Below, piece after piece: positions 9,442 through 58,363 of a stretch of 60,499 nt of DNA. The notes below the pieces were generated by a model, which ran no database searches, had not been told where the DNA came from, and saw nothing but the letters and a program-made list of their open reading frames with translations. Each line of letters opens with the position of its first letter. Position 1 is the first letter of the stretch. The position numbers and the translations under genes were made by a program. Source of the DNA: an uncultured Bacilli bacterium (GTDB lineage: Bacteria > Bacillota_I > Bacilli_A > RF39 > UBA660); contig CANQQR010000001.1 of the NCBI GenBank assembly GCA_947626035.1, forward strand, positions 79,096 through 139,594. Reading direction: 5' to 3'.

Positions 9442-9732
9442 ATGGCAGCTATTTATTCCGCAACTCAATCAATTCCTGTAACAGTCAAGCAGGAATGTGA
9501 GGAATGTAAAATTAAAGATAATATTATCTTATATTCCACTGGTTGTCCAAAATGTAAAGTATTAAAGAAAAAATTAGATAGTGCTAATATTGACTATGAG
9601 TTAATTTCAGATGTTGATATTATGCAAGAGAAAGGTTTTGCATCTACGCCTGTGCTAGAAGTTAATGGTCATTGTATGAGTTTTGTTGAAGCCAATACTT
9701 GGGTAAAGGAACATATTGGTCATGAACGTTAA
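9442..9732 (+). CDS. Glutaredoxin/NrdH-like redoxin
   Basis: YSTGCPKC active site and TPVLEVNG. Confidence 0.8.
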   Translation: MAAIYSATQSIPVTVKQECEECKIKDNIILYSTGCPKCKVLKKKLDSANIDYELISDVDIMQEKGFASTPVLEVNGHCMSFVEANTWVKEHIGHER

Positions 9733-10408
9733 CATAAGACTTGGCAAAAATTTCGTTACTCAATATAACAAACTTCAAGCAGAATTTGGTACAGACATAG
9801 CTCGCATCAATGGCTTTGATGATGATCAGCTTAGTTATACGGACTTTATTGAAAATTTTATTGATAGCTCTGTCGTTGCAGATGCTAGTATAGATGGAAA
9901 TAGCAATGTATCTCATAAAGACATAGTTACCTTACTGAATGAAATGCCGAAGCCCCATAGAAAACTATTGGCTTTTAATAAAATATATTACGAAATTCAA
10001 AAGAAATATGGTTTTAAAGCAGCAAACGAGTGGCTTCGTATGGAGTGGATTGGTCAGCTTTATATGCACGATGCGGATACTTCTACATTTAAACATTATT
10101 GTTTTGCTTATGATTTAAAAGACTTAGCTGAAAAAGGCTTATATTTCATTGGTGGAAACTTTAATGCGAAACCCGCGCAGCACTTAATTACCTTCGTAGA
10201 TTTTGTAAAAGAGTTCATTAGCTACGCTAGCAATAGGTCTTCTGGCGCAGTCGGGCTTCCTAATTTGATCCCATATATGTACTACTTTTGGAAAAAAGAT
10301 GTAGATAATGATTACCTAGGAATTAAGTCTAGTCATCGAGAAATTGAATACGCTAAACAAAATTTTCAGCGGTTTATATATGCAGTGAATCAACCTTATG
10401 TCAGGGAT
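9722..10408 (+). CDS. nrdD: Anaerobic ribonucleotide reductase, exon 1
   Basis: LYMHD, YCFAY, SGAVG. Ends NQPYVRD and joins GSQSAFTN. Confidence 0.9.
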
Positions 10409-11566
10409 AGACTAAAGACTGTCCGTTAATTACTTTTCCTGCTCATCACAGGGGTTACATAGGTATAATATGTAGCTAACGGTGAAGCCTAAACTTATAA
10501 AAGCAAGGTAATACCGTGGAAATCAAAATATTAATTAATAGGTTAAATAAAATAACAAGGAGGTGAAATAATGAAGAAAGATATATATGTTATTAAAAAT
10601 GATATTAATTCTAATGTTTACATTGGCCAAGCAATCAATACATTAGAAAGATTTCAAGGTCATTGCAAACCAAGTGCGACTGATAGTCTTGTAGATAAAG
10701 CTATTAATAAATATGGTAGGAAGCATTTTTGGTATGAAATCTTGGAATCTCAGATAGATAACTATAATGAAAGAGAAAAATATTGGATAAAATATTATAA
10801 TAGTCTTGCGCCCAATGGTTATAATTTATCTGAAGGTGGAGATGAACCTCCTTTAATGAAAGGATGCGATCATCCTGAAGCTAAGCTAACTCCTGAACAG
10901 GTTATTAGTCTAACAAATACATTATTAACTTCATCAGAATCATTACGATCTTTAGCAAAAAAATATAATATTGCAGCATCTACTATAAAAGATTTTAATG
11001 ATGGAAAAACCTATTTTAGACCAGAAATTAATTATCCTATTAGAAAAGAGAATCCAATAGGTAAATTAACTGAATCTGATGTAGATATAATTATTAATAT
11101 TCTTAAAACATCATATCGTTCTTTTGAAGATATAGGTAAGGAATTTAATGTTGAAGCAAGAGCAATATCTCGAATTAATAGTGGAGTGTTTCACAAACGT
11201 AGTAATGAAGAATATCCAATAAGAGAAGGACAAGTTGGAAGATATGGTTCAAGGTTATCTTATGAACAAGTTACTACAATTATAGATATGTTATTACACA
11301 CAACTTATTCTTTAAGAGAAGTGGCTCGACTTAATTCTTGCGACTATGTAGATATTTTAGGAATAAAAAATGGTACTACTAAATTATATAGGCGAAAAGG
11401 TTTAACCTATCCTTTGCGCCCTAATAATTAATATTTTGAAGTCTGTATCGACTATCTCCGCGAAGGAGAGTACGGCTGCTATTGATACGCAGTTGGAAAG
11501 AGTAATTAGTTTCTTTTAGAGAAACTTAAAATATAGTCAGCGCTTTATGAAAGTAAAGAGTTCGCG
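10409..11566 (+). mobile_element. Group I intron in nrdD
   Basis: P1 GGAU/GUCC with U.G. GACTA (~11450) and ATATAGTC (~11531); terminal G at 11566. Removal restores the frame. Confidence 0.9.
10571..11431 (+). CDS. Intron-encoded GIY-YIG homing endonuclease
   Basis: DIYVIKN...VYIGQ, EREKYWI, NGYN; three HTH-like repeats ending YPIR/YPLR. Confidence 0.9.
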   Translation: MKKDIYVIKNDINSNVYIGQAINTLERFQGHCKPSATDSLVDKAINKYGRKHFWYEILESQIDNYNEREKYWIKYYNSLAPNGYNLSEGGDEPPLMKGCDHPEAKLTPEQVISLTNTLLTSSESLRSLAKKYNIAASTIKDFNDGKTYFRPEINYPIRKENPIGKLTESDVDIIINILKTSYRSFEDIGKEFNVEARAISRINSGVFHKRSNEEYPIREGQVGRYGSRLSYEQVTTIIDMLLHTTYSLREVARLNSCDYVDILGIKNGTTKLYRRKGLTYPLRPNN

Positions 11567-12814
11567 GGTTCACAATCTGCATTCACCAACACCTCTGTCT
11601 TTGATAGACCGTACTTTGAAGCATTATTTGGTGGCTCAGAGTTCCCAGATGGTTCCTTTATGATTGACTATGAAGAAGAAATTATTGAGTTCCAAAAGTT
11701 ATATATGGAAGTAATGGCAAAGATTCGTCAAGAAAATATGTTTACCTTTCCAGTTTCAACAATTTCTCTTCTACGTCAAAAAGGCAAATTTGTTAATGAA
11801 GATTTTGCAAGATGGGCATTAAAACATAATATGACTTGGTCTGATAGCAATTTATTTATTGATAGTTCTGTCAATAGTCTGTCTAACTGTTGTAGGCTGA
11901 AAAGTGATATCAGAGACCTCGGTTATTTCAACAGTATAGGTGGGACCGCGCTGAAAGTAGGCTCGGTAAAAGTCTCTACTATTAACCTTGCTAGACTTGC
12001 ATTAGATACCTCAACAGAAGAAGAATATCTTGAAGAACTTAAGCATAGAGTAGAAGTAGACCTGCGGGCGCTCGATTGCGTGCGCCATATAATCACGCGC
12101 AATGTAGAAAAGGGCTTACTTCCAAACTTCACTCATGGTCTTGTAGATTTTGATCATCTTTATAATACTATTGGATTCTTAGGTATTTATGAAACAATGA
12201 AGAAATTTGGATATACAAGAACAGATGAGTTTGGTAATGTGTTCTACACTGATAAAGCTAGTACATTTGGTGAGAAAATCTTTAAAACAATACGTCAAAC
12301 CGCTGATACTTTTATCGAGACCGAAGGCGTATCATACCGCGTTAATTGCGAACAAATTCCAGGTGAGTCAGCCGCGGCCAAGCTCATGAAAAAAGATAAG
12401 TTCTTCTATCCAGATGCTAACATTTATGATTTACCACTATATGGTAATCAATTCATTCCTTTGGGTATCCAAACAACAATAGAAGAAAGGATTAGGATTG
12501 CCTCATTGTTTGATAGCTATTGTAATGGTGGGTCGATTTTACATGTAAATATCGACGCCCCATTTGATAACTTTGATAAGATGTGGAATATGGTAAATTA
12601 CATCGCAGATCAGGGAGTTACTTACTTTGCTTTTAATACAAAGATTCAAGCTTGTAAGAATAATCACGCATTTTATGGAAATGTGTGTCCAGTATGCGGG
12701 AACCCGGTCCATACGGAATATACCAGAATCGTTGGATTCTACACACCTATCTCAACGTGGTCAAAAGAAAGAAATAGTGAATATAAAATGAGAAAGTGGG
12801 AGCCAGTAAATTAG
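11567..12814 (+). CDS. nrdD: Anaerobic ribonucleotide reductase, exon 2
   Basis: SNCCRL finger loop, EQIPGES, CxxxH...CPVCG zinc site, YTRIVGF glycyl-radical motif. Confidence 0.92.
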   Translation, partial: GSQSAFTNTSVFDRPYFEALFGGSEFPDGSFMIDYEEEIIEFQKLYMEVMAKIRQENMFTFPVSTISLLRQKGKFVNEDFARWALKHNMTWSDSNLFIDSSVNSLSNCCRLKSDIRDLGYFNSIGGTALKVGSVKVSTINLARLALDTSTEEEYLEELKHRVEVDLRALDCVRHIITRNVEKGLLPNFTHGLVDFDHLYNTIGFLGIYETMKKFGYTRTDEFGNVFYTDKASTFGEKIFKTIRQTADTFIETEGVSYRVNCEQIPGESAAAKLMKKDKFFYPDANIYDLPLYGNQFIPLGIQTTIEERIRIASLFDSYCNGGSILHVNIDAPFDNFDKMWNMVNYIADQGVTYFAFNTKIQACKNNHAFYGNVCPVCGNPVHTEYTRIVGFYTPISTWSKERNSEYKMRKWEPVN

Positions 12815-15612: not shown

Positions 15613-15636
15613 AAAGGGAGTCCTTAGACTCCCTTT
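15613..15636. terminator. Bidirectional terminator at the convergence of the two genome arms
   Basis: AAAGGGAGTC-CTTA-GACTCCCTTT palindrome between convergent genes. Confidence 0.75.
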
Positions 15637-15938
15637 AGTTTATTAAATACTTTGTTTGTAATATGTATAATTTCCTCTCCATAAGTGGCAATTAAGTCAG
15701 CTAAAAGCTCTTCCTGCTCCAGAGTAAGATCAACATTATAAGAAAACATAGCTGCGTGTGTCAACTCATGACAAAGCACTTTTTTAAAGAATTTGCCCTT
15801 TAGCTGATCATTAATATAAATAGTCTTAGTATTATCATCGCAAGTAGCAATGGATAAAGAGCCGTCGCTTCGATACAATAGAGGATGATACTCATTTACA
15901 AATTTAATGTACCAAGTCTCACCATTAATCTCTATCAT
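15624..15938 (-). CDS. Small zincin metallopeptidase (ImmA/IrrE-like)
   Basis: LCHELTHA (HExxH) with downstream EE. Confidence 0.7.
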   Translation of the reverse strand: MIEINGETWYIKFVNEYHPLLYRSDGSLSIATCDDNTKTIYINDQLKGKFFKKVLCHELTHAAMFSYNVDLTLEQEELLADLIATYGEEIIHITNKVFNKLKGV

Positions 15939-16576
15939 TTTATTTTAGCGGCAAGCGTAGTCAATTTCTGACTTAGCATAGCTCTTTCCTCGGGAGATGC
16001 ATCCTGAATCATTTCAGTCATATCTTCAGTGAGTTCTTGCATATATGTCTCTAACTCTTTCATTTGCTCAGGCGTTCCTTTATGTAATTCTTTAGACTCC
16101 ATATAGTTTTTTCTACTCATTGGACTTCTACCTTCCCTTACATCCCTGATTTCCATTGGGTAATTATAGTCTGAAAAATTGCGGGAGCTGCCGCTTGAAG
16201 ACGAACTGGAGTCACCTCTTCCGCCACCGGAACTAGACATATTTCCACCTGACCGAGACCCGCCGCTGTAATACATGCGACCATAATCTCTATCCATATC
16301 TCTGTATTCAGGATGCATATGATAATATGGCTCTTGATAGAAGCGCTGAGGCTGATTTTGAGGCATATATTCCTTAATCTTATCCATTACTTTCTTCTCT
16401 TCTTTTGATTCTTCCATGGCCTTAACGACGCTACAGTAATACATCGCTTCTTCCATGTCTTTAATCATGTCAATTACCTCGCCCAATTCTTTTGCATCGA
16501 CTTCCGCGAGGTTTTGTCCCATTTGAGACTCTACACAGCTTACAAGCTGATTTTTGATAGCTTTTAATCTTTCCAT
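15935..16576 (-). CDS. Uncharacterised helical protein with G/S-rich linker
   Basis: ELGEVIDMIKD helix, low-complexity centre, acidic/Met-rich C-terminal helices. Confidence 0.7.
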   Translation of the reverse strand: MERLKAIKNQLVSCVESQMGQNLAEVDAKELGEVIDMIKDMEEAMYYCSVVKAMEESKEEKKVMDKIKEYMPQNQPQRFYQEPYYHMHPEYRDMDRDYGRMYYSGGSRSGGNMSSSGGGRGDSSSSSSGSSRNFSDYNYPMEIRDVREGRSPMSRKNYMESKELHKGTPEQMKELETYMQELTEDMTEMIQDASPEERAMLSQKLTTLAAKIK

Positions 16577-16588
16577 AGTTTTACCTCC

Positions 16589-17032
16589 TTATGCAACTCT
16601 TTCTACTACTAAATTAGCATTTTGAACGTCTATTGTTTGAGCACTGACATTCTTAACGCTTATCTGTGAGCAGCAGCCAAGAGGAACACTAACAAAAGCT
16701 ACGCTAGATACATTATTAAATTCAGCAGTCGTAGTTGGTGTTACTGTAGCAGTAGAGCTGGCTAACGCTTCTCCGTTAATTGCAATAGCTACAGAAATTG
16801 GCGCAGGTACTGTTCCGCCATCTGGCACTGCTATATTTGCTCCAAATGAAACCTTATACAATGCGCGGCACTGCTTAGAGCTACCGCGCAGAGTAACAAG
16901 GCCACTACCCTCACGATGGAGTATGGAGCAAGAACAGCTATACACAGGCACTTCTGTGAATAATACATTTTGATTTGTTGCTACTGTTTGTAGAGTAACC
17001 GCTGTAAATTCAGCCATTTCTTTTACCTCCAA
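16589..17032 (-). CDS. Beta-rich protein, BclA C-terminal/C1q-like fold suspected
   Basis: Alternating beta pattern, YKVSFGANI, NANLVVERVA; Cys pairs. Confidence 0.55.
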   Translation of the reverse strand: MEVKEMAEFTAVTLQTVATNQNVLFTEVPVYSCSCSILHREGSGLVTLRGSSKQCRALYKVSFGANIAVPDGGTVPAPISVAIAINGEALASSTATVTPTTTAEFNNVSSVAFVSVPLGCCSQISVKNVSAQTIDVQNANLVVERVA

Positions 17033-17052
17033 GATAGTTATTAATTAGTTAA

Positions 17053-17907
17053 TTACGCTACTGCGTAACCTTGACCATAGCCGCAACCACAGCCGCTATA
17101 TCCATAGCTATTAGCTAAAACCGCGGGAGACCAGTTGCCCAAACCGCATGGAGACGCCGCAGGATAAGCTGGAACTGGCGTTGGAGCTACAATACCGCGG
17201 ACCTGATTGATAATATACTGTGCGGTTGTCTGATCGCCGCATGAAGCAAGTTTGGTACGCAGGTCAGCAATAGTTTCATCTTTTCTAGCACTTTCCATAG
17301 CATCAAGACGAGCCAAGATACGATCAGTATCATTATGCGCGTTCTGTATAATAGCCGTTGTATTAGTAGCAGCATTGTAATTAGTGTCACAGTTAGCTCT
17401 TTCAATCTGGTTGCCAATCTGCATCTGACCAGTCCGTAAGTCACAGCAGCATCCCGATAATTGAGTTTGCAGAGCATTCTGATTCTGAAGAGCAACGGTA
17501 TTAGCAGCATAAAAGCCGCCCTGAATTGTGTTGTTCAGACCATTGATCATCTGAGCGGTATCATACTGTTGATTACAGATAGTGCTATTTAAATTAGCAA
17601 AACCTACATTAACAGCGTCAGAGATTGCGCCAGTCTCACGCATTAAGTTCTGGAAGTTATTGTCGATACAAGCTTGTTCGCGAGTTAGTGCACCTTGAGA
17701 CGCGGCAGTGCTACCACCCCCGCCACGGTTGCCCATACCACCAAAACCATTACCATCCCATCCGCAGAAGACGAATAAGAACAGGATGATAATCCACCAA
17801 GCGTATCCACCTCCAAAACCATCTCCATTATTGGAGTTTCTTCCACTGCCGCCTGTTGCAGCAGCAATGTCGGCTAAACTATAGCCACAGTTTGAAGTGT
17901 TAAACAT
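17053..17907 (-). CDS. Gly-rich membrane protein with coiled coil and Cys cluster
   Basis: Hydrophobic WWIIILFLFVFCGW flanked by Gly-rich tracts; N/Q heptads, CCC, P-rich and GCG tail. Confidence 0.75.
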   Translation of the reverse strand: MFNTSNCGYSLADIAAATGGSGRNSNNGDGFGGGYAWWIIILFLFVFCGWDGNGFGGMGNRGGGGSTAASQGALTREQACIDNNFQNLMRETGAISDAVNVGFANLNSTICNQQYDTAQMINGLNNTIQGGFYAANTVALQNQNALQTQLSGCCCDLRTGQMQIGNQIERANCDTNYNAATNTTAIIQNAHNDTDRILARLDAMESARKDETIADLRTKLASCGDQTTAQYIINQVRGIVAPTPVPAYPAASPCGLGNWSPAVLANSYGYSGCGCGYGQGYAVA

Positions 17908-17948
17908 TTTGTTATCCTCCTATAAAATATTTGTTATATATAAAAAGT

Positions 17949-18188
17949 TTACAGACCTATTTGTTTCTTAAAATCTGCAAACTCTTTATCAAAATTGGTG
18001 CCCCTCTCATTGCAAATATTACGAGCTATTTGTTCAATACCCGCAGTATCATTATGTTGAGCTAAATTCAATAGATTAGCAAATGTTGGATTCCCTTCGC
18101 TACTTTGTTGTAATATGTTTAATATAAACTGTTGCGGATTTCCGCTTCTCATCATTAAACCAATTGTTTGCAATAAATTAGAAGCCAT
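17949..18188 (-). CDS. Small helical protein (NPQQ/NP motifs)
   Basis: GNPQQFILNIL...NPTFANLL; overlaps the upstream gene. Confidence 0.65.
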   Translation of the reverse strand: MASNLLQTIGLMMRSGNPQQFILNILQQSSEGNPTFANLLNLAQHNDTAGIEQIARNICNERGTNFDKEFADFKKQIGL

Positions 18189-18621
18189 TCTTACTTACCT
18201 CCTTGCGCGGCGGCTGCTGCTTTGGAGCGTCAATAAGCGAATCTATTTTCTCGTCTAATCCAGTTATTTTCTCCATTAACTGAGATAATATTGTGCTAGA
18301 GTTCTCGGTCTCTTCGGCTTGAGCGGCGACCGCGGGTTCATATTTTACAATACTAGTTGTACCATTATTATTCCAAGTCTTTAAGTAGATTTCACTTAAA
18401 TCTGCTTTTGGAAACACGCCATATCCGCCCATCGGTACTTCTGTAGCCTTAACCATTTCCTCGCTGTCTACTACTTTCCCATTTAATATAGTTTGCGGCT
18501 GCGGTTGAGGCTGTACAAACTGTTGCTGCGGTTGCTGCACCATAGATTGCTGATATGGATATTGGTACTGATTATTATAGAGACTATTCATATAATAACC
18601 AGGTGTTTGATAATAATTCAT
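18178..18621 (-). CDS. Q/Y/N-rich N-terminus protein
   Basis: Low-complexity N-terminus, IYLKTWNNNG domain, C-terminal coiled coil; strong RBS. Confidence 0.7.
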   Translation of the reverse strand: MNYYQTPGYYMNSLYNNQYQYPYQQSMVQQPQQQFVQPQPQPQTILNGKVVDSEEMVKATEVPMGGYGVFPKADLSEIYLKTWNNNGTTSIVKYEPAVAAQAEETENSSTILSQLMEKITGLDEKIDSLIDAPKQQPPRKEVSKNGF

Positions 18622-18825
18622 ATCTTCCTCCTTTTAAAATATTATTTACCTTTCCCTTACATCTATTATTAAAAATTAGTTTAAATGAAATTTTAATGAT
18701 TGTCCTAAGTTTTTATTAAAATTTAAAATTTGGCAGGTAACTCGTTGAAAGAGTTAGAATATGAATATTTTATCATTTCTAAAAAAAGCTTAGATTTTTA
18801 GCCTAACACCAATTTATAGGAGAAT

Positions 18826-18892
18826 AAAAAAAATGGGAAATACTAAGTATTTCCCAATAAAAATAAGCGGAAAGATTTTACTCTTTCCGCTA
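18826..18892 (-). terminator. Tandem hairpins ending the tail/DGR transcript
   Basis: AGCGGAAAGA/TCTTTCCGCT and TGGGAAATAC/GTATTTCCCA stems with T-runs on the minus strand. Confidence 0.65.
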
Positions 18893-19170: not shown

Positions 19171-20328
19171 CTACGCTGCTAAACCAATTTTCTTCATATT
19201 ATCTACCATAATTGGTATCATAAATAAATCATGATATAATTTTTCTAATCTATATTGTGTCTTTCGACTATTCTTCCCTTTAAAATATCCACGCATAGAC
19301 TGATAAGCTGTATTAATCATATCTATATTTAACTTGCCTAAGTCATATAATTTTTTGAGCTTCTTAAACTTGCGTCTATTACGTGTCACATATGCTCTTT
19401 CTACTCGCCGCACAACCTTACCTGTAGTACTTAAATTGTATTGTGTCTTAAGAAAAGTGAAAGAGTGTGTCAACTTAACTAAACGTATCTTCTTCTCATT
19501 TAACTCTATACCAACTTCCGTGCATTTCTTACTTATCTCTTGTAAACAATATTGTAAGTATTCTTTACTTTCATGAATAAGATAGCTATCATCCATATAT
19601 CTCCCATAGCCTTTAATTCTTAACACTTCTGTAATATAATGATCTATCTTATTTGGATAATTGATCGCAAATGTTTGATTGGTTTCACTTCCTAACCCAA
19701 GCCCTTTTTCTCCATAAACATCAACTGTTTGGTGAATTAAATTAATAATTCTTTTATCATATATCTTCTTCTCCATATCTTTATAAATAGGTTCATGAAG
19801 AATATTTTCAAAATAACTATGATAATCTATAAGCAAGATATATCCATCTCGTCCACGCTTCCTATAAAAATCAGTTAAATGTTTTACAATAGCTTTCTGA
19901 TGAAAACTAATTCCTTTTCTATATAAACTTGCGCCGTTATAATAAATCAATGAGTTAGAAATTATAGGAATCAAGCAATTCTGATTTAACGATTTTAAAA
20001 CTACTCTTTCACTTATATGTACGCTCTTGATATTACGTACTTTACCGCGTTCTCGCAACGTAAACTCAAAGAATCCTTTAAAGACACTATCTCCATTACG
20101 TAGCAGTCTCCGCGCCTTATAAATATTTTCTAGTATATGCGCTTCATACTTTTGAGTGCTAGCTTTCCAACCAACACTTTTCTTACACTGATAGAAAGAA
20201 TTATATAAACTTTCAAATGCTATGATATTATTAAAATTGCCATATTTTTTATTTAAAACATCTCTTTTAGCTTTTCGCGCTTTTCTTCTTCTTTGAAATC
20301 TAGCTTCATGCCTTTCGGAACTTGTCAT
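19171..20328 (-). CDS. DGR reverse transcriptase
   Basis: RYMDD catalytic motif, LLIDYHSYF, GLGLGSETNQ, FTFL; adjacent to TR and avd. Confidence 0.93.
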   Translation of the reverse strand: MTSSERHEARFQRRRKARKAKRDVLNKKYGNFNNIIAFESLYNSFYQCKKSVGWKASTQKYEAHILENIYKARRLLRNGDSVFKGFFEFTLRERGKVRNIKSVHISERVVLKSLNQNCLIPIISNSLIYYNGASLYRKGISFHQKAIVKHLTDFYRKRGRDGYILLIDYHSYFENILHEPIYKDMEKKIYDKRIINLIHQTVDVYGEKGLGLGSETNQTFAINYPNKIDHYITEVLRIKGYGRYMDDSYLIHESKEYLQYCLQEISKKCTEVGIELNEKKIRLVKLTHSFTFLKTQYNLSTTGKVVRRVERAYVTRNRRKFKKLKKLYDLGKLNIDMINTAYQSMRGYFKGKNSRKTQYRLEKLYHDLFMIPIMVDNMKKIGLAA

Positions 20329-20733
20329 AGACTATCCTCTCTTTATTAAAAAATATTTGGCACATGCGAGCCTTATCCAGGTGTGGCATGTGCCTATGCC
20401 GGGTCCTACTGTAAGATTGACCCAATCTACGCGCTATTACAAACCGTATCACTAGAGTATGGGCATGAAAGCAAGGATGACGCGTAGAACCTTGCCCATG
20501 CAAGAAGCGTCCGCCCATCTCATCCCAGCACCAATTTGTGGCAATTTCTTGCCAGCAGGTCACAAGCTCATAAATAATTATTTTTATATTATATTTTTGA
20601 CGTATGCTCATTGTCTGTATACAGGTCCAGAAACACGATCTAGACAATTGGTTTCAGCTTGTATCTCCCACCCGTAGATGTAGACCTTACATAGCTTACT
20701 CCGTCGAAGCAACGCTGATAAAAATTATTTATC

Positions 20734-20853
20734 CACAGAGGCACCCCATTAGAGTTGGTAGCGCTGTTGTAGTTGGCATTGCCGTTGTTGTTGACATTGC
20801 AGCAGTTAGTAGATGAAGCAGTGCTTACAGAAGCTAACCACCAGTTGTAGCGA
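20734..20853 (-). repeat. DGR template repeat (TR)
   Basis: 120 nt, AAC-rich, aligns without gaps to 21656-21775; all 17 mismatches fall at TR adenines. Confidence 0.95.
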
Positions 20854-20964
20854 AAATTTTTATTAAAAATTTTTGTCCCAACCGTCGTCGCGAACTCAAC
20901 AAAAACATCAGATAACCGATGTCCCACTGGAACATAGCTTGTAACCTATGTATATTATTTAAAA

Positions 20965-21384
20965 TTAAGAATCTTTATGACTCTTAATTAATTTGTCTAA
21001 TTTATGTTTGATCAGCTCATTTTCGTCAACAAGTAACGCTACAACTCTTTCATATGGGCTAATCTTAATATGTAGATGAAGCTTTGCCATTTGTAGCTCC
21101 GAAAAAATCTTATCTATTGCATCAAGCATACCTAGCAAAGCCATCTTTTGACGCTCATAAGTAATCTCAGATTTCTCTTTATCATACTTACAATTATCAT
21201 ATTTATATCCATTGTCTATTAATTCCCTACACGCATCAATTGCTGATGTGGCATAGACAAAACGATACCGTTTAGGTATAGCCTTCTCATTCATGACTAA
21301 TCTAGTAACTTCTACGCGGATTTCCTTTGCTCTGTTTAAATATTCTGTTTCCGCTATCTCTCTTTGCGTAAGCAATACGCTCAT
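20965..21384 (-). CDS. avd: Avd-like accessory variability determinant
   Basis: MSVL start, PKRYRF motif, four-helix character, located immediately 5' of TR. Confidence 0.8.
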   Translation of the reverse strand: MSVLLTQREIAETEYLNRAKEIRVEVTRLVMNEKAIPKRYRFVYATSAIDACRELIDNGYKYDNCKYDKEKSEITYERQKMALLGMLDAIDKIFSELQMAKLHLHIKISPYERVVALLVDENELIKHKLDKLIKSHKDS

Positions 21385-21599
21385 TCTTGAATCTCCTTTA
21401 ACTCTTCTTCTAACCGATTAATTTCAGCTCGCCACTCTTCTCTTTGCTCTTTAATTGGCGCATACTCTTCCTCAGAGAACAGACCTTCGGAATGTTTCAT
21501 GGCTTTATAATCGGTATCTATTAATAGACTTTTATAAATATTTATTTTGTTCATAGTTTCTTGAAATCTATAAGATTTCTCTTCATCAAAGTTGTCCAA
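21381..21599 (-). CDS. Small tail-fibre-associated protein
   Basis: TTG start with AAGGAGG; TDYKAMK...REEWRAEINRLE; follows the fibre gene. Confidence 0.6.
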   Translation of the reverse strand: MDNFDEEKSYRFQETMNKINIYKSLLIDTDYKAMKHSEGLFSEEEYAPIKEQREEWRAEINRLEEELKEIQE

Positions 21600-21621
21600 A
21601 ATTTTTTATCCTCCTTTAAAG

Positions 21622-23835
21622 TTAAACTAATTTTGTTGTGTGAGAAGTGCGGAAGCACAGAGGCACCCCAAGAGAGTTGGTAGCGCTGCCGCAGTAGGCA
21701 TTGCCGCCGCTGCTGACAATGCAGCAGTAAGTAGATGAAGCAGTGCCGACAGAAGCTAACCACCAGGCGGAGCGACCGCCACCATTTCCTCTACCCTTAA
21801 TCCTATACTTCCAATTGTTTGCAAATAATGGATATTGTACTGCTTGCCCTGAACCATATCCTGGTTGACTCCATATATTACAACCAAAAACTTCATATTC
21901 TGTAGGCACCCATAGCTTACCCATAGGATACCAGTGCCATCCCGAAGACGATGTTAATGTTGTAGATCCTTTCTGACCTCTTCGTTCTAGTAAGTATTGC
22001 TTATTAATAATTACGTTTTGTAAATCAGCAGGTAAACTACTAAATAGCCCATCAAGCTTAGATTTTAAATTGCAAGATAACCATGGTACGTCAGTTCCAT
22101 CATCTGAACCACTAGCACTAAGAGCATTATTAGTATTTGTAATATTCCATTGATATAATGTAGTAAAACAATCTTTACTAACCCAATCAATATGATGTGG
22201 TATTGGACTTAAAGTGCCTGTTTCGTATGCTCCATGAGTTTCAGTATTACCAGTATTTAAATAAGTATCAATACCAACTATTTGCGGTTTCATTGTTTCA
22301 GTGCCAACTTGAATAGTCATGTAATCGCCTAGCATAATATCTTTATAATTAACATCCTTAGTCATTTGATTAAAGTCGCTCCACCTATATCCTAGTGTAG
22401 TTAAATCACGACCTTCATAGACATGCTGACCTGGTACAATTACATAAGTTTTCATTACAGTATCTAAATATTTTTTATTAACAGCATTATCGTCAAGAGT
22501 AGGATCTGCTATTCCACTAAGTATAATATTATTAGAAGCGACATTTCCTTCTCCACCTGCAATAGTCAATGATCCTTTATCATCCATACTAATATTTACA
22601 ACATGTCCGCTATATTTTAATACAAGAGATGGAGGAATTGCATCAGACTCTATTACTAACGGTCCACTCTTCAGAGTCTGCATACTATCATTACCTAAGA
22701 AATTACTCGTAACATATTTCTTAGTAGTAGCATCATCGTTGAGTCTAGGATCTGCGACCTGCAATGTTTTTAAAGCATCTGTCTTAACGTCTTTAATCTT
22801 AACTTGTTTCTCCTCAAAGCTTACTTTAAATCCATCTCCAGCTTTATCTGTAAGACTTAATCCGTCTGCTTCAAGCGATCCCTTATTCCCATTACTATCA
22901 GTAAGAGTCACCTCAAAAGAACTTACATTTAATGTACTAGCAGCCTCATTTTCTTTAGCGGTCAGACTAATATCTTCACTTGTTACTTCATTTGTATAAG
23001 ATAAAGTACCTCCAACTGTACTTGTAGTTGTCAATTTTACATTATCGCCGCTAACAACAGTTGTATCAGTAATTTCTCCAACATCAGTCGTTGTCTTTGT
23101 TATAGTAACGGATTCATTACTGTAAGTAGCTGAAGGATCTGTTGCTGCTGTACCTGGCATCTGTAATGCCCCAGTCATAGTGTCGCCAACCTTTTTTACA
23201 AGTCCTTCTTCGCCACCTTTTACCATATATCTTTCATCGCCAAAGTCAACGGTAATTAAATCTTTTCCTTCTTTAGGTTTAGCGCCGCCTTGAAGAATCT
23301 TTGTTTGATCTTTAAGCTCTATGTGATCGCCATCATCTGCAATATGCCATAGTGGCACATCTGCGGGTATTGGTAAATTACCAAGGACGATACCTACTGT
23401 AATATCCGCGGTTGGTTTGCTATAGACCCAGAATGTAACACTGCCATCCGCGGTTTCCGCGTATCCGCTAGCAAGAATACTAAAGTTTTGAGAATATACA
23501 GACTGTTCTTCTGGAGAAGTATTTTTACCAACCAGATTGACAAGTAAAGCATTTCTGTCAGAAATATTCTCATTTTCAACTGTTTGTACCCATAAAGCTT
23601 TACCTTCAGCACCTGGCTTCCATCCACTTTCTAGCAAAGTTACTTCTACTAAAAGATTACCTTTATCTAACTCAATCTGAATGTTCTTAAATTGCTTCTC
23701 AACATTAATACCGCTTTCAAGTACGACATTTTTACCTTCAGCACCAATAGGATAAGATGTAAACGTGCCATCCGCATTTTTCTGATTAATAGTTTTTATA
23801 TACTTACCATCTTTAGGTGTTAATTCATACGCCAT
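21622..23835 (-). CDS. Tail fibre/receptor-binding protein, DGR target (C-type-lectin-like C-terminus)
   Basis: Two ADP...D(A/N)A-x-x-KKY fibre neck motifs; LWVPTEYEVFG...QYPLF...WWLAS; VR at the 3' end. Confidence 0.85.
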   Translation of the reverse strand: MAYELTPKDGKYIKTINQKNADGTFTSYPIGAEGKNVVLESGINVEKQFKNIQIELDKGNLLVEVTLLESGWKPGAEGKALWVQTVENENISDRNALLVNLVGKNTSPEEQSVYSQNFSILASGYAETADGSVTFWVYSKPTADITVGIVLGNLPIPADVPLWHIADDGDHIELKDQTKILQGGAKPKEGKDLITVDFGDERYMVKGGEEGLVKKVGDTMTGALQMPGTAATDPSATYSNESVTITKTTTDVGEITDTTVVSGDNVKLTTTSTVGGTLSYTNEVTSEDISLTAKENEAASTLNVSSFEVTLTDSNGNKGSLEADGLSLTDKAGDGFKVSFEEKQVKIKDVKTDALKTLQVADPRLNDDATTKKYVTSNFLGNDSMQTLKSGPLVIESDAIPPSLVLKYSGHVVNISMDDKGSLTIAGGEGNVASNNIILSGIADPTLDDNAVNKKYLDTVMKTYVIVPGQHVYEGRDLTTLGYRWSDFNQMTKDVNYKDIMLGDYMTIQVGTETMKPQIVGIDTYLNTGNTETHGAYETGTLSPIPHHIDWVSKDCFTTLYQWNITNTNNALSASGSDDGTDVPWLSCNLKSKLDGLFSSLPADLQNVIINKQYLLERRGQKGSTTLTSSSGWHWYPMGKLWVPTEYEVFGCNIWSQPGYGSGQAVQYPLFANNWKYRIKGRGNGGGRSAWWLASVGTASSTYCCIVSSGGNAYCGSATNSLGVPLCFRTSHTTKLV
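21656..21775 (-). repeat. DGR variable repeat (VR)
   Basis: Copy of TR with A-to-N substitutions. Homology ends at CTGTG, followed by CTTC in VR and GATA in TR (IMH/IMH* boundary). Confidence 0.95.
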
Positions 23836-35868: not shown

Positions 35869-38800
35869 TTATCTTCTATTGCTAAAAGCGTGCATAGATG
35901 CAGCATTCACTAAGTTATTTAAAGCTTCCTCGATCTCTCTCGCATCGCGGACTCCTGGGAAGTTAGCCTCGATGTGCACATTCTGATCAAGAGCTCCCGC
36001 AGTATTAGGCGTAGCTGTAAATCTCGTAAAACCAATACCGCTTGTTAGATTAGCCATATGTGCATTAGTAGCTGTGTTAAGATTATTGATTAAATCATCC
36101 ATGTGACGAACGATACCAACAGCAGATAAGATATTCTGTGTATCTGTTTGATTAAGAACTAGTTCTTTTTCGTGAAGAATCGCAGCTTTGCCTCCACTGC
36201 CAGCCCAGTTACCTGTGTAACCACCTGTATCAAAAGCAGTAAGTGGCAACCAACCGAATTTCTTTTTAGTAGTTCCCCATCTTACGTGAACAGGGTAATC
36301 TTCAGCCGCAGATTTATTATATCCAACGATCTCAACCTGCCCTCCAACCTGTCCTTCAAATGTCGCATATCGAGCATACGGACCGCTATAATAAGGCGTT
36401 AATGAAAAAGTTTTCTTGTCATTAAGATTATAGCCTTTGCCAGAAGCACCAGTAAATAAATAATTAGCTCCAGATGGACTTCCGCTATTAGAATAACCTC
36501 CGCCGCCAAAACCACTTTCAGATCCAGAACTGCTACTACTATTACTCCCAGGGCCACTAGTATTAGTTCTATTTTGTAGCACGTTAGCAGGTATGTTACT
36601 GCTTGCAGAAGGACTATAACCATCATCCCAATCCGCGGACGCCGCTGCTTCCCGCTGGGCCTGGGCTAATTCGTATGCAGCGGTCGCCGCGTCTTCAGCA
36701 GCACTCTTAATCGCTCCATACTTAGTCTCTAAATCATCTAACTGACCTAAAACACCCTGAATAGCTGGAATTAATTCATCTCTATACTTCTTAATTAAGG
36801 CATCATTACTACTCATTAAATCTCTTGTAGCTTGAACACCTTCAGTGATTCCAGTATGTAGCTGACTAAAGGTGACGTCCGCAGCATCTTCTAGTCTACT
36901 TAAGTCTTCCTGGTAGTTATTAGTAGTCTCTACCAATTCTGAGAAAGCCTCGCTACATGTAGGAATAAAACCACCCTCGCCAGCGAAGGTGTCCGCCATA
37001 TGCTGAACTCCTGAATCCCACTGAGGTATCAAACTATTCATTAGCTCGTCCTTCTCAGCTTGACTCATGTTCTTGAAGTTCTGGACGTCGGTTTGGTACA
37101 ACAAAGCGAGATCCGCGAAAGCAGAATCATAAAGATTATTCCTGATATAAGCGTTCTCTGTAACAATACCATTGATTAACTCACCATACTGCTCAGCCAA
37201 CAGCGCTTCCCGCTTATTTCTCTCTTCTGGGTCTAATGTAGGATCAAGATATAACTCTTTCAGCTTATCCTGGAACTCCTCATAAATACTATATAAGTCA
37301 TCAAGATTCTGTTGATACTGATTCTTATCAAAGTTATACAAGTCATTCTGTGCGTCTTGTAACTCTTGCTGCTTCTGCGCGACCTCTTCCTCATCTGATA
37401 CATACTGATAAGTATAGTTACCTTGAGAGTCACGTCTTAGACGAAGATTAGTCTTGCTTTGTTGCGCGTTCTGTAAGGCTAGCTGTTTCAGAGTTAACTC
37501 ATAGATCATATTAGCACGCTCAACATCATACTCGGTCAGCTTATCTTTCTCACGTAAGTAGTCTAACTGCTGACCCATGACATCTCTAATCTTTTGTTGG
37601 TCAGCTAAATTATCTGTACTGTCAAGAGCATCTAAGTATTTATTTTCTAGCTCTTGAACAGCTTGCATTGCATTAATATTATCAAGATACCTTTCAGCAT
37701 TAGCATTGATTAAATCCCATTCCTCGCCAACGTAATCTAGCCCAAGACCGCCTGTAACTTTATCATTGAGTTTATCAAAAATCATGTTGATAATATTGCT
37801 ATATTTGTCAATAATGTTTTCTACAGCTTCTTCAACTTTACTATTTAACTGCTCTAAAGAATCCTGCCATTCCTCTTGCCATTTTTCGCGGGCTTCGGGA
37901 TCAGTTTCTAGATCCGTCATCTGTTTAGCATAATCAACGCGCTTCCGCAAGAAATCTAATTCATTATTATCATTCTCTTGAATCTGCCGATAGTACTTAT
38001 CCATGTCAGCATACGCATCATCACCATATAACAAACCAATTAGATTCATATCATGATTAAGTAAATCATTAATATAATCATACTGGTCTACATGCTTATC
38101 AAACTCGTCGATAGCTTTGTCTATCATATCCAGGTAAGACTCTTTAATCTGATCTGATAGATCTTTCATATCTTCAAGCTGACTCATTAACTCAGAATAA
38201 TAATTATCTAAGTCTTCAAGCGCTTGCTGCGCATCCTTACCATAGATATCACTTACTCCACCAGGTTCCGCAAGTTTCTGGACTTCCGCGATAGTTTTAT
38301 TTACCTGAGTTGTTAATGCTTGGATAGGACCAGTCCCCGTATTAAAAGTATCTAAAAACGCGTAGTAGTCTTCTAGATCTGATGTAGCATTACCTAAGAT
38401 ATCATCGTCTGCTATCTCTCTTAATATCTTACGGCGGAACTCGCTAAAGTCTTTCTCAGCCTCGGCTATGTCTAGCCTTAGCTCGATCTCCGCGGTAAAT
38501 TTCTGGATATTAATCTCTATTTGACGGTCAAAAGCTTCTTCGATGTTATCTTGTAACTCAGGAATTTCTTTAGATATTATTGTATCATACCGACTAATAT
38601 TATCTTTTAAGGTCTCATAATCTTTTTTGGCCCGCTCAACAACATCTTTGAATGTTTTTTGTTCATCCGCAGATAAGGAATTATATAAATCTATTAAATT
38701 ATTTACTTGATCCATTTTCACTTGAAGAATATTAGTATAATTAGTTAAATATCCTTCTGAATCAAAAGTAGCTCCTTGAGCGCTTAAAACATTTCTTAGT

Positions 38801-44559: not shown

Positions 44560-44654
44560 ATCTATCCTTGTACCTCCTTGACAAAATAAAAATAATGCCT
44601 CTACTACCATATTATGATAATAGAAGCATTAATATTAATTTATTTTGACCTTAT

Positions 44655-57996: not shown

Positions 57997-58363
57997 CTAA
58001 TACCCAGCCGCCCGCATTATATAATCATAGTCTACTCGACCCTCATCCCAATATGGTATAGCAATCAGAGTAATACCATGCTTTTCACAGTACTCTCTCT
58101 TTTGCATATCATTGAATTGTTGTTTTCTCAGGCCAGAGAGTCCGCCGAACTTGCTCTTTGCTTGATAATGTTCTTCGGTGCTGGATCCCTTGAAATTCAA
58201 TCAAGAAATCCAGTTCATCATTATCATCGAATACGGCGAAGTCAAATCTCAACGGTCTCCCATTGGTGCTCACAAGGTCTGAAAAACTATATTCCTCTTG
58301 AAATTTTAATCCCGCGTCTCGCAGAATTTCTTCAATTTTAATCTCGCCTCTACTCGCTCGCAT
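57997..58363 (-). pseudogene. Vsr/DUF559-like endonuclease frameshifted by a 10-bp insertion
   Basis: MRASRGE...LRFDF...IEFQGIQH in one frame and HYQAKSKFGG...IPYWDE in another. Deleting 58171-58180 restores one ORF. Confidence 0.7.

What the first reader, a model, noticed from the sequence alone, without database searches (positions are those of the whole stretch)
15624..18705. Self-contained six-gene cassette of unknown function: best candidate for an undescribed system
Seen: a tightly packed operon with its own promoter-like motif (18705) and flanking terminators, at the junction of the two genome arms. It encodes (1) a Q/Y/N-rich protein, (2) a small NPQQ helical protein, (3) a Gly-flanked single-TM protein with long N/Q coiled coil, CCC and a Cys/Gly tail, visibly GC-richer than the background, (4) a Cys-containing beta-sandwich resembling BclA-CTD/C1q, (5) a helical protein with G/S linker, and (6) a HExxH metallopeptidase. 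None is a recognisable replication, virion or lysis gene. From recollection (unverified), similar proteins recur in gut Firmicutes phages as hypotheticals. Inference: a trimeric, disulfide-linked, protease-matured membrane or surface assembly with a chaperone. Possible roles are spore-coat/exosporium modification, superinfection exclusion, or a membrane-penetrating toxin.
Basis: partly seen in the sequence, partly recalled or inferred. Interest (0 to 1): 0.78.

Follow-up and report, generated by a model that had tools for sequence, protein, structure and literature searches.

The report
Portable phage filament-and-knob gene cassette
Six tightly packed late genes of a large gut phage are one copy of a very common but unstudied add-on cassette; it encodes a cysteine-rich protein with a greasy anchor, a knob folded like spore-surface and C1q proteins, three low-complexity partners and a tiny zinc peptidase, and its job is still unknown.

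Summary
The six minus-strand genes (15624-18621) are real. Five have GGAGG ribosome sites and the sixth is translationally coupled. Terminators bound the unit on both sides, at the point where the two genome arms converge.

- **g4:** folds as a TNF/C1q jelly roll. Nearest are F-BclA, BclA, BxpB and ExsF (Z 15-17).
- **g3:** has one short hydrophobic segment, a CCC motif kept in 192 of 193 homologues, and a Cys/Gly tail. Its "coiled coil" was not confirmed (pLDDT 40.7).
- **g6:** a minimal HExxH...E peptidase, nearest to IrrE.

The cassette recurs in IMG/VR phages and in MAGs. g3 and g5 flank g4 in 38 of 38 roomy loci. The peptidase is either a papain-like enzyme at the 5' end (22 loci) or the HExxH enzyme at the 3' end (13), never both. 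Its neighbourhood varies. A holin-endolysin pair lies elsewhere in the genome.

My best reading, at 0.4, is a self-contained, peptidase-matured, membrane-tethered filament-and-knob assembly that does not depend on the virion. The function is unproven.

This scan has noted the same cassette at least ten times on other DNA. My paper searches found no description of it.

The parts
18702..18740 (-). Conserved upstream element specific to the cassette (candidate promoter or operator), about 80-120 nt before the g1 start
   Evidence: Nearly invariant in six relatives (L001, L002, L021, L101, L102, L130) although the rest of the spacer has diverged. It occurs once in the 139.6-kb contig at up to 2-3 mismatches. 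It overlaps the weak sigma-70-like match at 18719-18690 (9 of 12).
18178..18621 (-). g1, 147 aa: Q/P/Y-rich N-terminal low-complexity region, a small beta-rich middle domain and a short C-terminal helix; no Cys
   Evidence: ORF and composition. phrog_21718 at E 2.3e-8. Alignment of 19 homologues. No Pfam, NCBIfam, PADLOC or PDB-sequence match. Present in 34 of 38 roomy g4-seeded loci.
17949..18188 (-). g2, 79 aa: small helical-looking protein with an NPQQ motif
   Evidence: ORF overlapping the end of g1 by 11 nt, with a GGAGG site. Similar 72-96 aa ORFs sit between g1 and g3 in 9 representative loci that lack the papain-type gene (L001, L021, L024, L026, L045, L050, L055, L086, L098). No family match.
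17053..17907 (-). g3, 284 aa: about 35 N-terminal residues, a Gly run, a short hydrophobic segment (36-50), a second Gly run, a Cys-studded middle with CCC (153-155), a Pro-rich PAY motif (about 241-258) and a Cys/Gly tail
   Evidence: phrog_16490 at E 2.6e-31. 3610 homologues among 5597 candidates scored. CCC in 192 of 193 distinct homologues, and at least 2 Cys in the last 25 residues in 191 of 193. The AF2 monomer model is poor.
16589..17017 (-). g4, 142 aa from the ATG at 17017: stand-alone TNF/C1q-type jelly roll (the 'knob') with an invariant CC at 115-116
   Evidence: AF2 pLDDT 83.4, pTM 0.80. Foldseek: F-BclA CTD 9h38 at E 2.6e-7, TM 0.73. VIA Z 17.2 for F-BclA, 15.2-15.3 for BclA, 15.2 for BxpB, 15.0 for ExsF. 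phrog_20016 at E 1.1e-49. 7968 of 8000 scored candidates are homologues.
15935..16576 (-). g5, 213 aa: N- and C-terminal helical-looking ends around a Y/S/R/D/G-rich low-complexity centre
   Evidence: No significant Pfam, PHROG, NCBIfam or PDB match. Next to g4 in 38 of 38 roomy loci.
15624..15938 (-). g6, 104 aa: minimal HExxH...E zinc peptidase, translationally coupled to g5
   Evidence: D34, H57, E58, H61 and E77 are invariant in 10 homologues. phrog_1233 at E 2.1e-15. Weak DUF6782, M78 and SprT matches below the Pfam cut-offs. The homologue in L001 reaches the DUF6782 cut-off (29 against 27 bits). The profile's best PDB match is IrrE at E 0.002-0.003.
18834..18891 (-). Two tandem terminator hairpins that close the upstream (DGR) unit and bound the cassette on its 5' side
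   Evidence: 18891-18866 and 18856-18834; sequence read.
15613..15636 (.). Bidirectional terminator hairpin at the convergence of the two arms, just past the g6 stop
   Evidence: the same 10-bp stem is scored on both strands.

Best explanation
The six genes are a self-contained, horizontally mobile accessory module. The phage expresses it in the orientation of its late genes, but it is not part of the virion-building or lysis machinery.

My reading of how it works:
- g3 is tethered to the cytoplasmic membrane by its short Trp-flanked hydrophobic segment and forms a cysteine-stabilised filament.
- g4 forms a TNF/C1q-type (probably trimeric) binding head that works with g3.
- g1, g2 and g5, all low-complexity and lacking export signals, co-assemble with or chaperone these two in the cytoplasm.
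- The small peptidase (g6 here; a papain-like enzyme in other phages) trims one of the cassette's own proteins, most likely g3.
- The complex becomes exposed when the cell lyses, as exosporium proteins made in the mother cell do. It then acts as a binding or adhesion device, or as a device that modifies the envelope.

Shown: the genes, their linkage, the g4 fold, the g3 motifs, the catalytic motifs of the peptidase, and the either/or pattern of peptidases.

Inferred: membrane tethering, g3-g4 contact, the trimer, processing, time of expression, and the role.
For: - **Tight operon:** SD sites, bounding terminators and its own conserved, genome-unique upstream element.
- **Linkage in g4-seeded MAG loci:** g3 and g5 lie next to g4 in 38 of 38 roomy loci, and g1 in 34 of 38.
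- **Linkage in IMG/VR:** across 95 loci the two main patterns are cysP-g1-g2-g3-g4-g5 (55) and g1-g3-g4-g5-g6 (21).
- **One of two unrelated peptidases:** 22 loci have the papain-like enzyme only, 13 the HExxH only, 0 both and 3 neither, of 38. Among 24 dereplicated clusters the split is 10, 10, 1 both, 2 neither and 1 cut short.
- **Context varies while the order is kept**: next to integrase or repressor (6 loci), after a holin or endolysin (4), between minor capsid and scaffold genes (3), after fibre or RT genes (4).
- **Same-fold proteins in varied phages:** stand-alone proteins with this fold occur in phages labelled sipho-, podo- and myovirus.
- **Only g3 is hydrophobic:** none of the other five has an N-terminal hydrophobic segment.
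- **g4 fold**.
- **A holin-like gene and a CHAP endolysin lie 37 kb away**.
- **No defence family matches**.
Against: - No experiment or proteome bears on the cassette.
- The g3 model is poor, so the word "filament" rests on sequence features only.
- No g3-g4 fusion was found (weak evidence).
- The type of the g3 N-terminal segment does not track the type of peptidase. Processing of that segment therefore has no comparative support.
- The TNF/C1q fold is also the usual tip of phage tail fibres. In this window the cassette directly follows the fibre/DGR genes, so a virion role is not excluded.
- Late timing is inferred from orientation alone.
- The 95 IMG/VR loci and 80 MAG loci were chosen by similarity to g3 or g4 and include near-duplicates.
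Confidence: 0.4

Rival explanations
1. It is an accessory virion fibre. g3 is a stalk and g4 the receptor-binding tip of a dispensable head or tail fibre. g1, g2 and g5 are assembly chaperones and the peptidase matures the fibre.
For: - The g4 fold matches fibre tips: the cyanophage A-1(L) short tail fibre CBD and an A4 portal-tail chain at Z 13.0-13.1, and collagen-like and tail-fibre proteins in BFVD.
- In this window the cassette follows the tail and DGR-diversified fibre genes.
- In L021 and L086 it follows fibre-like genes. In L047, L007 and L011 it sits inside the head module.
- None of the six proteins has an export signal, as is true of virion proteins.
Against: - The same cassette occurs in phages of 30-150 kb with very different structural modules, and lies after lysis genes or next to integrases.
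- It has its own terminators and its own regulatory element.
- A hydrophobic membrane-type segment is unusual in fibres.
- No PHROG structural annotation matches.
Confidence: 0.2
2. It is an inner-membrane device that acts inside the infected or lysogenic cell. It either excludes superinfecting phages by blocking DNA entry or tunes the timing of lysis, with g3 as the membrane component.
For: - g3 is the only membrane-type protein and all its partners look cytoplasmic.
- The cassette often lies between lysis genes and the integrase/repressor, the usual place for conversion genes (Ceridwen).
- It forms a self-contained transcription unit.
Against: - Six genes, including a C1q-type binding head and three low-complexity proteins, are far more than known exclusion or antiholin systems need (general knowledge).
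- A canonical holin-endolysin pair exists elsewhere.
- The cassette is also carried by phages with no lysogeny genes nearby, such as this 139.6-kb contig.
Confidence: 0.15
3. It is a bacteriocin-like or membrane-inserting toxin released at lysis. g3 is a precursor with a leader and a Gly-rich hydrophobic core that is processed by the peptidase, and g4 supplies target binding.
For: - The N-terminal about 20 residues of g3 (S-x-A-D-I-A-A-x-T-G-G type), followed by Gly-rich hydrophobic sequence, look like a double-glycine leader and core. That resemblance is recalled from memory, not tested.
- A papain-like enzyme with an invariant Cys, His and Asp accompanies the cassette in other phages.
Against: - The papain-like protein has no Pfam C39 match.
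- No transporter or immunity gene was seen among the neighbours examined.
- Leader type does not follow peptidase type.
- About 230 further conserved residues of g3 would go unexplained.
Confidence: 0.08
4. It remodels the spore surface. The phage adds a BclA/ExsF-like nap or appendage to the host's spores.
For: - The nearest solved folds are exosporium proteins.
- The Cys-rich and Q/Y-rich partners recall coat proteins (from memory, not tested).
- The MAG that holds this contig encodes Spo0A (138 bits) and SpoIVA (331 bits).
- Most MAG labels are Clostridia-type.
Against: - Cultured Butyrivibrio phage Ceridwen carries cysP-g1-g2-g3-g4 and a g5-like gene. It was observed only in the lytic cycle (PMC7372960, passages). 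Butyrivibrio is described as non-spore-forming (my own knowledge).
- There are no collagen repeats and no match to any NCBIfam model, among them the exosporium-leader model.
- The link between this contig and the MAG rests on binning only, and their GC differs (36.9% against about 29%).
Confidence: 0.07

Closest known systems
BclA and F-BclA C-terminal domains (Bacillus cereus-group exosporium nap and F-ENA tip; PDB 1wck, 2z5w, 9h38; Pfam PF18573)
   Same: g4 has the same TNF/C1q jelly roll: Z 17.2 over 123 residues at rmsd 2.1 for 9h38, and Z 15.2-15.3 for BclA. 3 of 18 family members weakly hit the BclA_C model (best E 5e-4).
   Different: g4 is a stand-alone 142-aa protein with no collagen-like stalk and no fused forms. 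The window's own g4 has no Pfam match. It is phage-encoded and occurs in a phage of a host that, from my own knowledge, does not form spores.
ExsF/ExsFA/BxpB, the stand-alone trimeric exosporium anchor that binds the Pro-rich leader of BclA and F-Anchor (PDB 9h3d, 7r1m, 7r5i, 8d02)
   Same: It is a stand-alone protein of similar size with the same fold (Z 14.1-15.2). It works with a separate filament protein (preprint 10.1101/2025.02.11.637640, passages read). g3 has a conserved Pro-rich motif near its C-terminus that could play the part of that leader (inference).
   Different: g3 matches no NCBIfam model, among them the exosporium-leader model. Sequence identity is only about 16-18%. The partner is a Cys-rich protein with a hydrophobic segment, not a collagen.
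IrrE/ImmA (Pfam M78) and minimal gluzincins (MJ1213-type, PDB 4qhf)
   Same: g6 has the HExxH motif plus a downstream Glu and an upstream Asp, all invariant. The best PDB sequence matches are IrrE 8slm and 3dte at E 0.002-0.003, and MJ1213 at E 0.09. At 104 aa it is similar in size to the 110-aa MJ1213.
   Different: The window's g6 scores below the Pfam cut-offs. No HTH repressor partner lies in the cassette. The substrate is unknown.
Catalogued but uncharacterised phage families: PHROG 16490 (g3), 20016 (g4), 21718 (g1) and 1233 (g6)
   Same: Direct sequence membership: E 2.6e-31, 1.1e-49, 2.3e-8 and 2.1e-15.
   Different: All four families are annotated 'unknown function'. They give no role and do not record the linkage between the genes.

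Membership tests
BclA_C / TNF-C1q domain family (g4) | TNF/C1q-type jelly-roll fold | tested here: met
   Model pLDDT 83.4. Foldseek E 2.6e-7 and TM 0.73 to 9h38, with 117 PDB hits at E<=1e-3. Z 17.2, 15.3 and 13-14 to F-BclA, BclA and C1q heads.
BclA_C / TNF-C1q domain family (g4) | Match to Pfam PF18573 at its curated cut-off | tested here: not met
   The window's g4 has no BclA_C hit, even at E<=10. 3 of 18 relatives hit weakly, best E 5e-4.
BclA-type filament | Collagen-like GXX stalk on the same polypeptide | tested here: not met
   142 aa, all of it jelly roll. The search for longer relatives found one 288-aa hit covering 62% and no collagen fusions.
BclA_C / TNF-C1q domain family (g4) | Homotrimer | not tested
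   No homo-oligomer prediction or experiment was run. The trimer is inferred from the fold family.
ExsF/BxpB anchor with leader-bearing partner | A partner protein carries the exosporium leader peptide (NCBIfam TIGR03720; name taken from the preprint passages) | tested here: not met
   The NCBIfam scan of all six proteins found no such match.
ExsF/BxpB anchor with leader-bearing partner | The knob binds a peptide of the filament protein | tested here: inconclusive
   The one complex job gave no verdict (see Tried and rejected).
ExsF/BxpB anchor with leader-bearing partner | Belongs to a sporulation programme | tested here: inconclusive
   The cassette is phage-borne and present in Butyrivibrio phage Ceridwen. 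However, the MAG holding this contig has Spo0A and SpoIVA.
IrrE/ImmA (M78) or minimal gluzincin peptidases (g6) | HExxH plus a third-ligand Glu conserved | tested here: met
   H57, E58, H61 and E77 (and D34) are invariant in 10 of 10 sequences.
IrrE/ImmA (M78) or minimal gluzincin peptidases (g6) | Score above the curated Pfam cut-off | tested here: not met
   Window g6: DUF6782 22.0 against 27 bits, M78 21.1 against 22, SprT 18.0 against 25.6. The L001 homologue reaches DUF6782 at 29.0 against 27.
IrrE/ImmA (M78) or minimal gluzincin peptidases (g6) | Adjacent HTH repressor substrate | tested here: not met
   None of the six cassette proteins has an HTH family match.
C39 double-glycine peptidase/leader systems (papain-like variant in other phages) | Catalytic Cys and His conserved in a papain-like protein | tested here: met
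   C23, H107 and D118 are invariant in 10 of 10 relatives. The window itself lacks this gene.
C39 double-glycine peptidase/leader systems (papain-like variant in other phages) | Pfam C39 match and a linked ABC exporter | tested here: not met
   Three such proteins have no Pfam match at E<=0.1. No transporter was found among 125 neighbouring ORFs.
Holin-endolysin lysis cassette | A muralytic enzyme plus a small multi-TM holin | tested here: not met
   The six proteins contain no muralytic domain. An 84-aa holin-like gene and a CHAP/choline-binding endolysin lie at contig C1 58068-59791.
Known anti-phage defence systems (PADLOC-DB 2.0) | Any model match | tested here: not met
   0 hits at E<=0.01 for the six proteins and two papain-like relatives.

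The most novel reading that the evidence does not exclude
This is a new class of phage-borne, self-assembling surface system. It would be a phage counterpart of the exosporium nap, made in the cytoplasm and exposed by lysis. A cysteine-cross-linked filament with a membrane-type anchor (g3) docks a stand-alone C1q/ExsF-like trimer (g4). Prion-like helper proteins and a dedicated, interchangeable peptidase complete it. Thousands of gut and rumen phages would use it to change what infected cells, their debris or their spores stick to.
Probability: 0.25. Interest if true: 0.8.

Novelty: categorically new. Interest (0 to 1): 0.6.

Why it matters
None of the listed proteins has a Pfam domain or a name beyond "hypothetical". 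A conserved five- to six-gene unit this common in gut and rumen phages, with no assigned function, is a sizeable gap in phage annotation.

If it builds a surface or adhesion structure, it would bear on several questions:
- how phages of Clostridia and Bacilli shape host aggregation, colonisation or spore properties;
- a second, phage-borne use of the BclA/ExsF fold;
- a case of non-homologous peptidase replacement within one system.

A cultured carrier, Butyrivibrio phage Ceridwen, makes the question testable by experiment.

Tried and rejected
- **g3-g4 contact:** one complex-prediction job (g4 x3 with g3 residues 196-284 x3) returned "no answer": score 0.01 against a mark of 0.32, with the partner's fold uncertain. 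It counts neither for nor against binding.
- **g3 structure:** the AF2 monomer from a 21-row alignment was poor (pLDDT 40.7, pTM 0.18), so I ran no fold search on it.
- **Protein Atlas:** neither g3 nor homologue P0216 is held there.
- **Profile searches against PDB sequences:**
  - g4: 0 hits at E<=10.
  - Papain-like protein: nothing meaningful, best E 0.7.
  - g1: best E 0.29, on coiled-coil segments of haemagglutinin.
  - g5: best E 0.25.
- **PADLOC:** no hits.
- **Does the g3 N-terminal type follow the peptidase type?** No clean pattern. The S-x-A-D-I-A-A type occurs with 5 papain-only, 6 HExxH-only, 1 both and 2 neither. The T-M-P-V-A-P type occurs with 5 papain and 1 HExxH. Four are of other types (3 HExxH, 1 neither). 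This covers 24 representatives.
- **Longer or fused forms of g4:** one doubtful hit.
- **Expression:**
  - One library recorded as metatranscriptomic (X5) holds contigs 85-99% alike over parts of g6, g5/g4, g4/g3 and the g3 N-terminus. One 393-nt contig spans the g3-g4 junction.
  - These are contigs of a relative and DNA carry-over is possible, so this does not show transcription.
  - Parts without cover prove nothing.
- **Lysis role:** rejected, because a holin-endolysin pair lies elsewhere.
- **General late promoter:** rejected for the upstream element, because it is unique in the contig.
- **Paper searches** gave no description of the cassette. The Ceridwen paper has no mass-spectrometry data (0 occurrences). 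Its supplements were not opened.
- **Dispensability:** in RuvC-seeded relatives, 7 of 9 loci have the cassette within 6 kb, in several different arrangements, and 2 of 9 do not (one of those has a short flank). That is too little to call the cassette dispensable.

Full report
**What is in the window**

The window is the right-hand 60.5 kb of a 139,594-bp contig. The contig's ends overlap. Its GC is 36.9%, against about 29% for the rest of the 1.43-Mb MAG it was binned with. It is a tailed phage.
- The + arm carries replication and nucleotide-metabolism genes: a Dda-like helicase, a DNA polymerase, an NrdD split by homing endonucleases, dUTPase and RuvC.
- The - arm carries terminase, portal, head and tail genes, including a 2913-aa tape measure.
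- Then comes a diversity-generating retroelement, followed by the six genes of the finding.
- The arms converge at 15609/15624, and GC skew changes sign there.

**The observation**

All six ORFs exist at the stated coordinates.
- g1-g5 each have a GGAGG site 6-9 nt before an ATG, and g6 overlaps the end of g5 by 4 nt. The spacings are -11, 41, 35, 12 and -4 nt.
- g4 should start at the ATG at 17017 (142 aa), as its homologues do.
- Two terminator hairpins precede the unit and a bidirectional one follows it. Terminator-like sites in the region number 9, against 3.5 +/- 1.6 in shuffles.
- A block at 18740-18702 is nearly invariant in six relatives whose spacer has otherwise diverged. It occurs once in the whole contig. 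It is found paired only upstream of g1 in the lineage that carries g6.
- I read that block as a regulatory element specific to the cassette. It is not a general late promoter.

**The proteins**

*g4.* It folds with confidence (pLDDT 83.4, pTM 0.80) into a TNF/C1q jelly roll.
- Foldseek puts F-BclA CTD first (E 2.6e-7, TM 0.73), then ExsF, ExsFA, BxpB and BclA CTD, then EDA, 4-1BBL and C1q family members.
- VIA-align gives Z 17.2 (F-BclA), 15.2-15.3 (BclA), 15.2 (BxpB), 15.0 (ExsF) and 13-14 (C1q heads). Two cyanophage tail proteins score 13.0-13.1.
- In BFVD the best matches are stand-alone proteins of 130-145 aa from uncultured phages. After them come the C-terminal domains of collagen-like and tail-fibre proteins.
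- At sequence level the link is faint. The window protein has no Pfam hit, while 3 of 18 relatives touch BclA_C at E down to 5e-4.

*g3.* It has one hydrophobic stretch of about 15 residues bounded by Trp and by Gly runs. Its 12 Cys include CCC at 153-155. It also has a conserved Pro-rich PAY motif and a Cys/Gly tail.
- CCC is present in 192 of 193 distinct homologues, and a tail with at least 2 Cys in 191 of 193.
- My AF2 model of g3 is poor (pLDDT 40.7). I therefore cannot confirm a coiled coil or rod, and the word "filament" is an inference from composition and motifs.

*g1, g2 and g5.* They are low-complexity proteins with short ordered-looking parts. They have no family or PDB match.

*g6.* D34, H57, E58, H61 and E77 are invariant. 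Its profile's best PDB matches are IrrE (E 0.002-0.003) and the 110-aa minigluzincin MJ1213 (E 0.09). Its Pfam scores fall just below the cut-offs.

Only g3 has a hydrophobic segment. None of the others has an export signal.

**Recurrence and linkage**

None of the 240 listed has a Pfam domain. The few that are named are called "hypothetical protein".
- In 14 g4-seeded IMG/VR loci, tblastn with the window's proteins found g3 beside g4 in 11. It found g2-g6 in the same order, followed by RuvC and dUTPase, in 4 of them, two of which also match g1.
- I built HMMs from these loci and applied them to 94 IMG/VR loci plus the window. The patterns were cysP-g1-g2-g3-g4-g5 (55), g1-g3-g4-g5-g6 (21) and smaller classes.
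- Here cysP is a papain-like protein of about 125 aa with an invariant Cys, His and Asp.
- After dereplication at 80% g3 identity there are 24 clusters: 10 with cysP only, 10 with g6 only, 1 with both, 2 with neither and 1 cut short.
- The g6-type loci also hold a g2-like small ORF that the HMM missed (9 representatives).
- In an independent g4-seeded set of 80 MAG loci, 38 had enough flank. All 38 had g3 and g5, and 34 had g1. 22 had cysP only, 13 had g6 only, none had both and 3 had neither.
- These loci were chosen by similarity and include near-duplicates, so the counts describe linkage, not prevalence.

**Context and hosts**

The neighbourhood changes while the internal order stays the same.
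- Next to an integrase or repressor: L074, L078, L084, L096, L026, L045.
- After a holin or endolysin-type gene: L003, L035, L098, L005.
- Between the minor capsid protein and the scaffold: L047, L007, L011.
- After fibre or reverse-transcriptase genes: L001, L050, L021, L086.

Among nine loci seeded with the window's RuvC, seven have the cassette within 6 kb, in several different arrangements.

The MAG labels break down as follows:
- Most are Clostridia-type.
- 10 of 80 are Bacilli-type.
- 6 of 80 are implausible bins such as Akkermansia and Methanobrevibacter.
- The closest relatives (76% and 70% g4 identity) carry "uncultured Bacilli" labels.

The only cultured carrier I found among 15 phage records is Butyrivibrio virus Ceridwen.
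- It has cysP-g1-g2-g3-g4 and a g5-like gene, placed after an endolysin-type gene and a terminator.
- Its paper reports only lytic growth and no mass spectrometry (PMC7372960, passages).

**What it is not**

- It is not the lysis cassette. An 84-aa holin-like gene overlaps a CHAP/choline-binding endolysin at contig positions 58068-59791.
- It is not a catalogued defence system.
- It is not a member of the BclA or ExsF systems. There is no collagen stalk, no match to any NCBIfam model (among them the exosporium-leader model), and no fused forms.
- The spore idea is weakened by Ceridwen's host, which I know as non-spore-forming. It is not closed for this window, because the MAG encodes Spo0A and SpoIVA. 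That host link rests on binning alone.

**How it most likely works**

The facts that constrain a mechanism are these:
- Strict g3-g4-g5 linkage.
- One of two unrelated peptidases, never both in the g4-seeded set.
- One membrane-type protein among five proteins that look cytoplasmic.
- A binding-type head domain whose known relatives are assembled in a cytoplasm and exposed by lysis (exosporium) or sit at fibre tips.
- Portability across unrelated phage backbones, with its own regulatory element.

I therefore favour, at 0.4, a self-contained assembly that does not depend on the virion. In this reading g3 is tethered to the membrane and stabilised by its cysteines, g4 forms its (probably trimeric) head, g1, g2 and g5 are assembly partners, and the peptidase matures a cassette protein. 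The whole is exposed at lysis and acts by binding.

By analogy with ExsF binding the Pro-rich leader of BclA and F-Anchor (preprint 10.1101/2025.02.11.637640, passages), the conserved PAY motif of g3 is my candidate docking peptide. This is untested.

The rivals are:
- an accessory virion fibre (0.2);
- an inner-membrane exclusion or lysis-timing device (0.15);
- a leader-processed membrane toxin (0.08);
- spore-surface remodelling (0.07).

**Relation to earlier notes of this scan**

Ten earlier follow-ups on other genomes describe the same "rod-and-knob" cassette and leave its function open. I re-derived the following independently:
- the g4 fold;
- the spread of the cassette;
- the variable context;
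- its separation from the lysis genes.

- the quantified either/or pattern of peptidases in two collections;
- the conserved, genome-unique upstream element;
- the negative test of leader type against peptidase type;
- the caution that g3's rod shape was not reproduced;
- the fact that this contig's MAG has sporulation genes.

**Novelty**

My three paper searches found no description of the cassette. The matching PHROG families are annotated "unknown function". Only one component has a known fold family, and the defining features of the systems that use that fold are not met. I therefore rate it categorically new as a system. The caveat is that "new" here means uncharacterised, not shown to work by a new principle.

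**Papers**

- 10.1101/2025.02.11.637640: passages.
- PMC7372960: passages.
- PMC13111695: abstract and outline only.
- PMC10470788 and 10.1101/2023.01.19.524802: search listings only.

Noticed in passing
window 19171-23835 (- strand): A complete diversity-generating retroelement lies directly upstream of the cassette. It has a reverse transcriptase at 19171-20328, a template repeat at 20734-20853 and a variable repeat at 21656-21775, inside the 3' end of the 737-aa gene at 21622-23835. All 17 mismatches within the 120-nt repeat fall at template adenines. Relatives L001 and L050 also have an RT gene just before the cassette.
   Followed up: partly
window 18702-18740 (- strand): A conserved element sits upstream of g1. 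Six relatives keep it (A and B halves both present), and it occurs once in the 139.6-kb contig. It is absent from the distant cassettes that carry the papain-type gene. What binds it is unknown.
   Followed up: partly
contig C1 of G000 (the window is C1:79096-139594): The contig's ends overlap, so the assembly looks circular. Its GC is 36.9% against about 29% for the other contigs, so the phage was probably binned into the MAG and is not integrated in it. The MAG has Spo0A (C16:5940-6251) and SpoIVA (C41:176-883).
   Followed up: partly
L019:18068-19791 (= C1:58068-59791, + strand): An 84-aa holin-like gene with two hydrophobic stretches overlaps the start of a 490-aa CHAP endolysin with choline-binding repeats. 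The pair lies among early or middle genes, far from the late arm.
   Followed up: partly
window 9716-12814 (+), 48062-48973 (-) and 58109-59150 (-): Homing endonuclease genes are frequent. A GIY-YIG gene at 10571-11431 splits the anaerobic ribonucleotide reductase large subunit into 9716-10429 and 11660-12814. HNH and GIY-YIG genes sit beside the terminase and among the head genes. More lie on the left part of the contig.
   Followed up: no
L006:3006-3263, L007:3316-3588, L011:3274-3477, L084:2758-3090: In some temperate relatives a small protein with a sigma-70 region-4-like HTH lies just upstream of the cassette (L011 Sigma70_r4_2 at E 1.3e-5; L084 at E 6.4e-9). It may be a dedicated regulator. 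The window has no such gene.
   Followed up: no
L006, L007, L011 (between g3 and g4); L015:9518-10312: Unrelated genes are sometimes inserted inside the cassette: a 143-249-aa ORF between g3 and g4, and in Ceridwen a 264-aa ORF between g4 and the g5-like gene. The unit therefore tolerates insertions.
   Followed up: no
window 35869-44610 (- strand): The tape-measure gene is very long (2913 aa), and only its first 550 or so residues match PHROG tape-measure families strongly.
   Followed up: no
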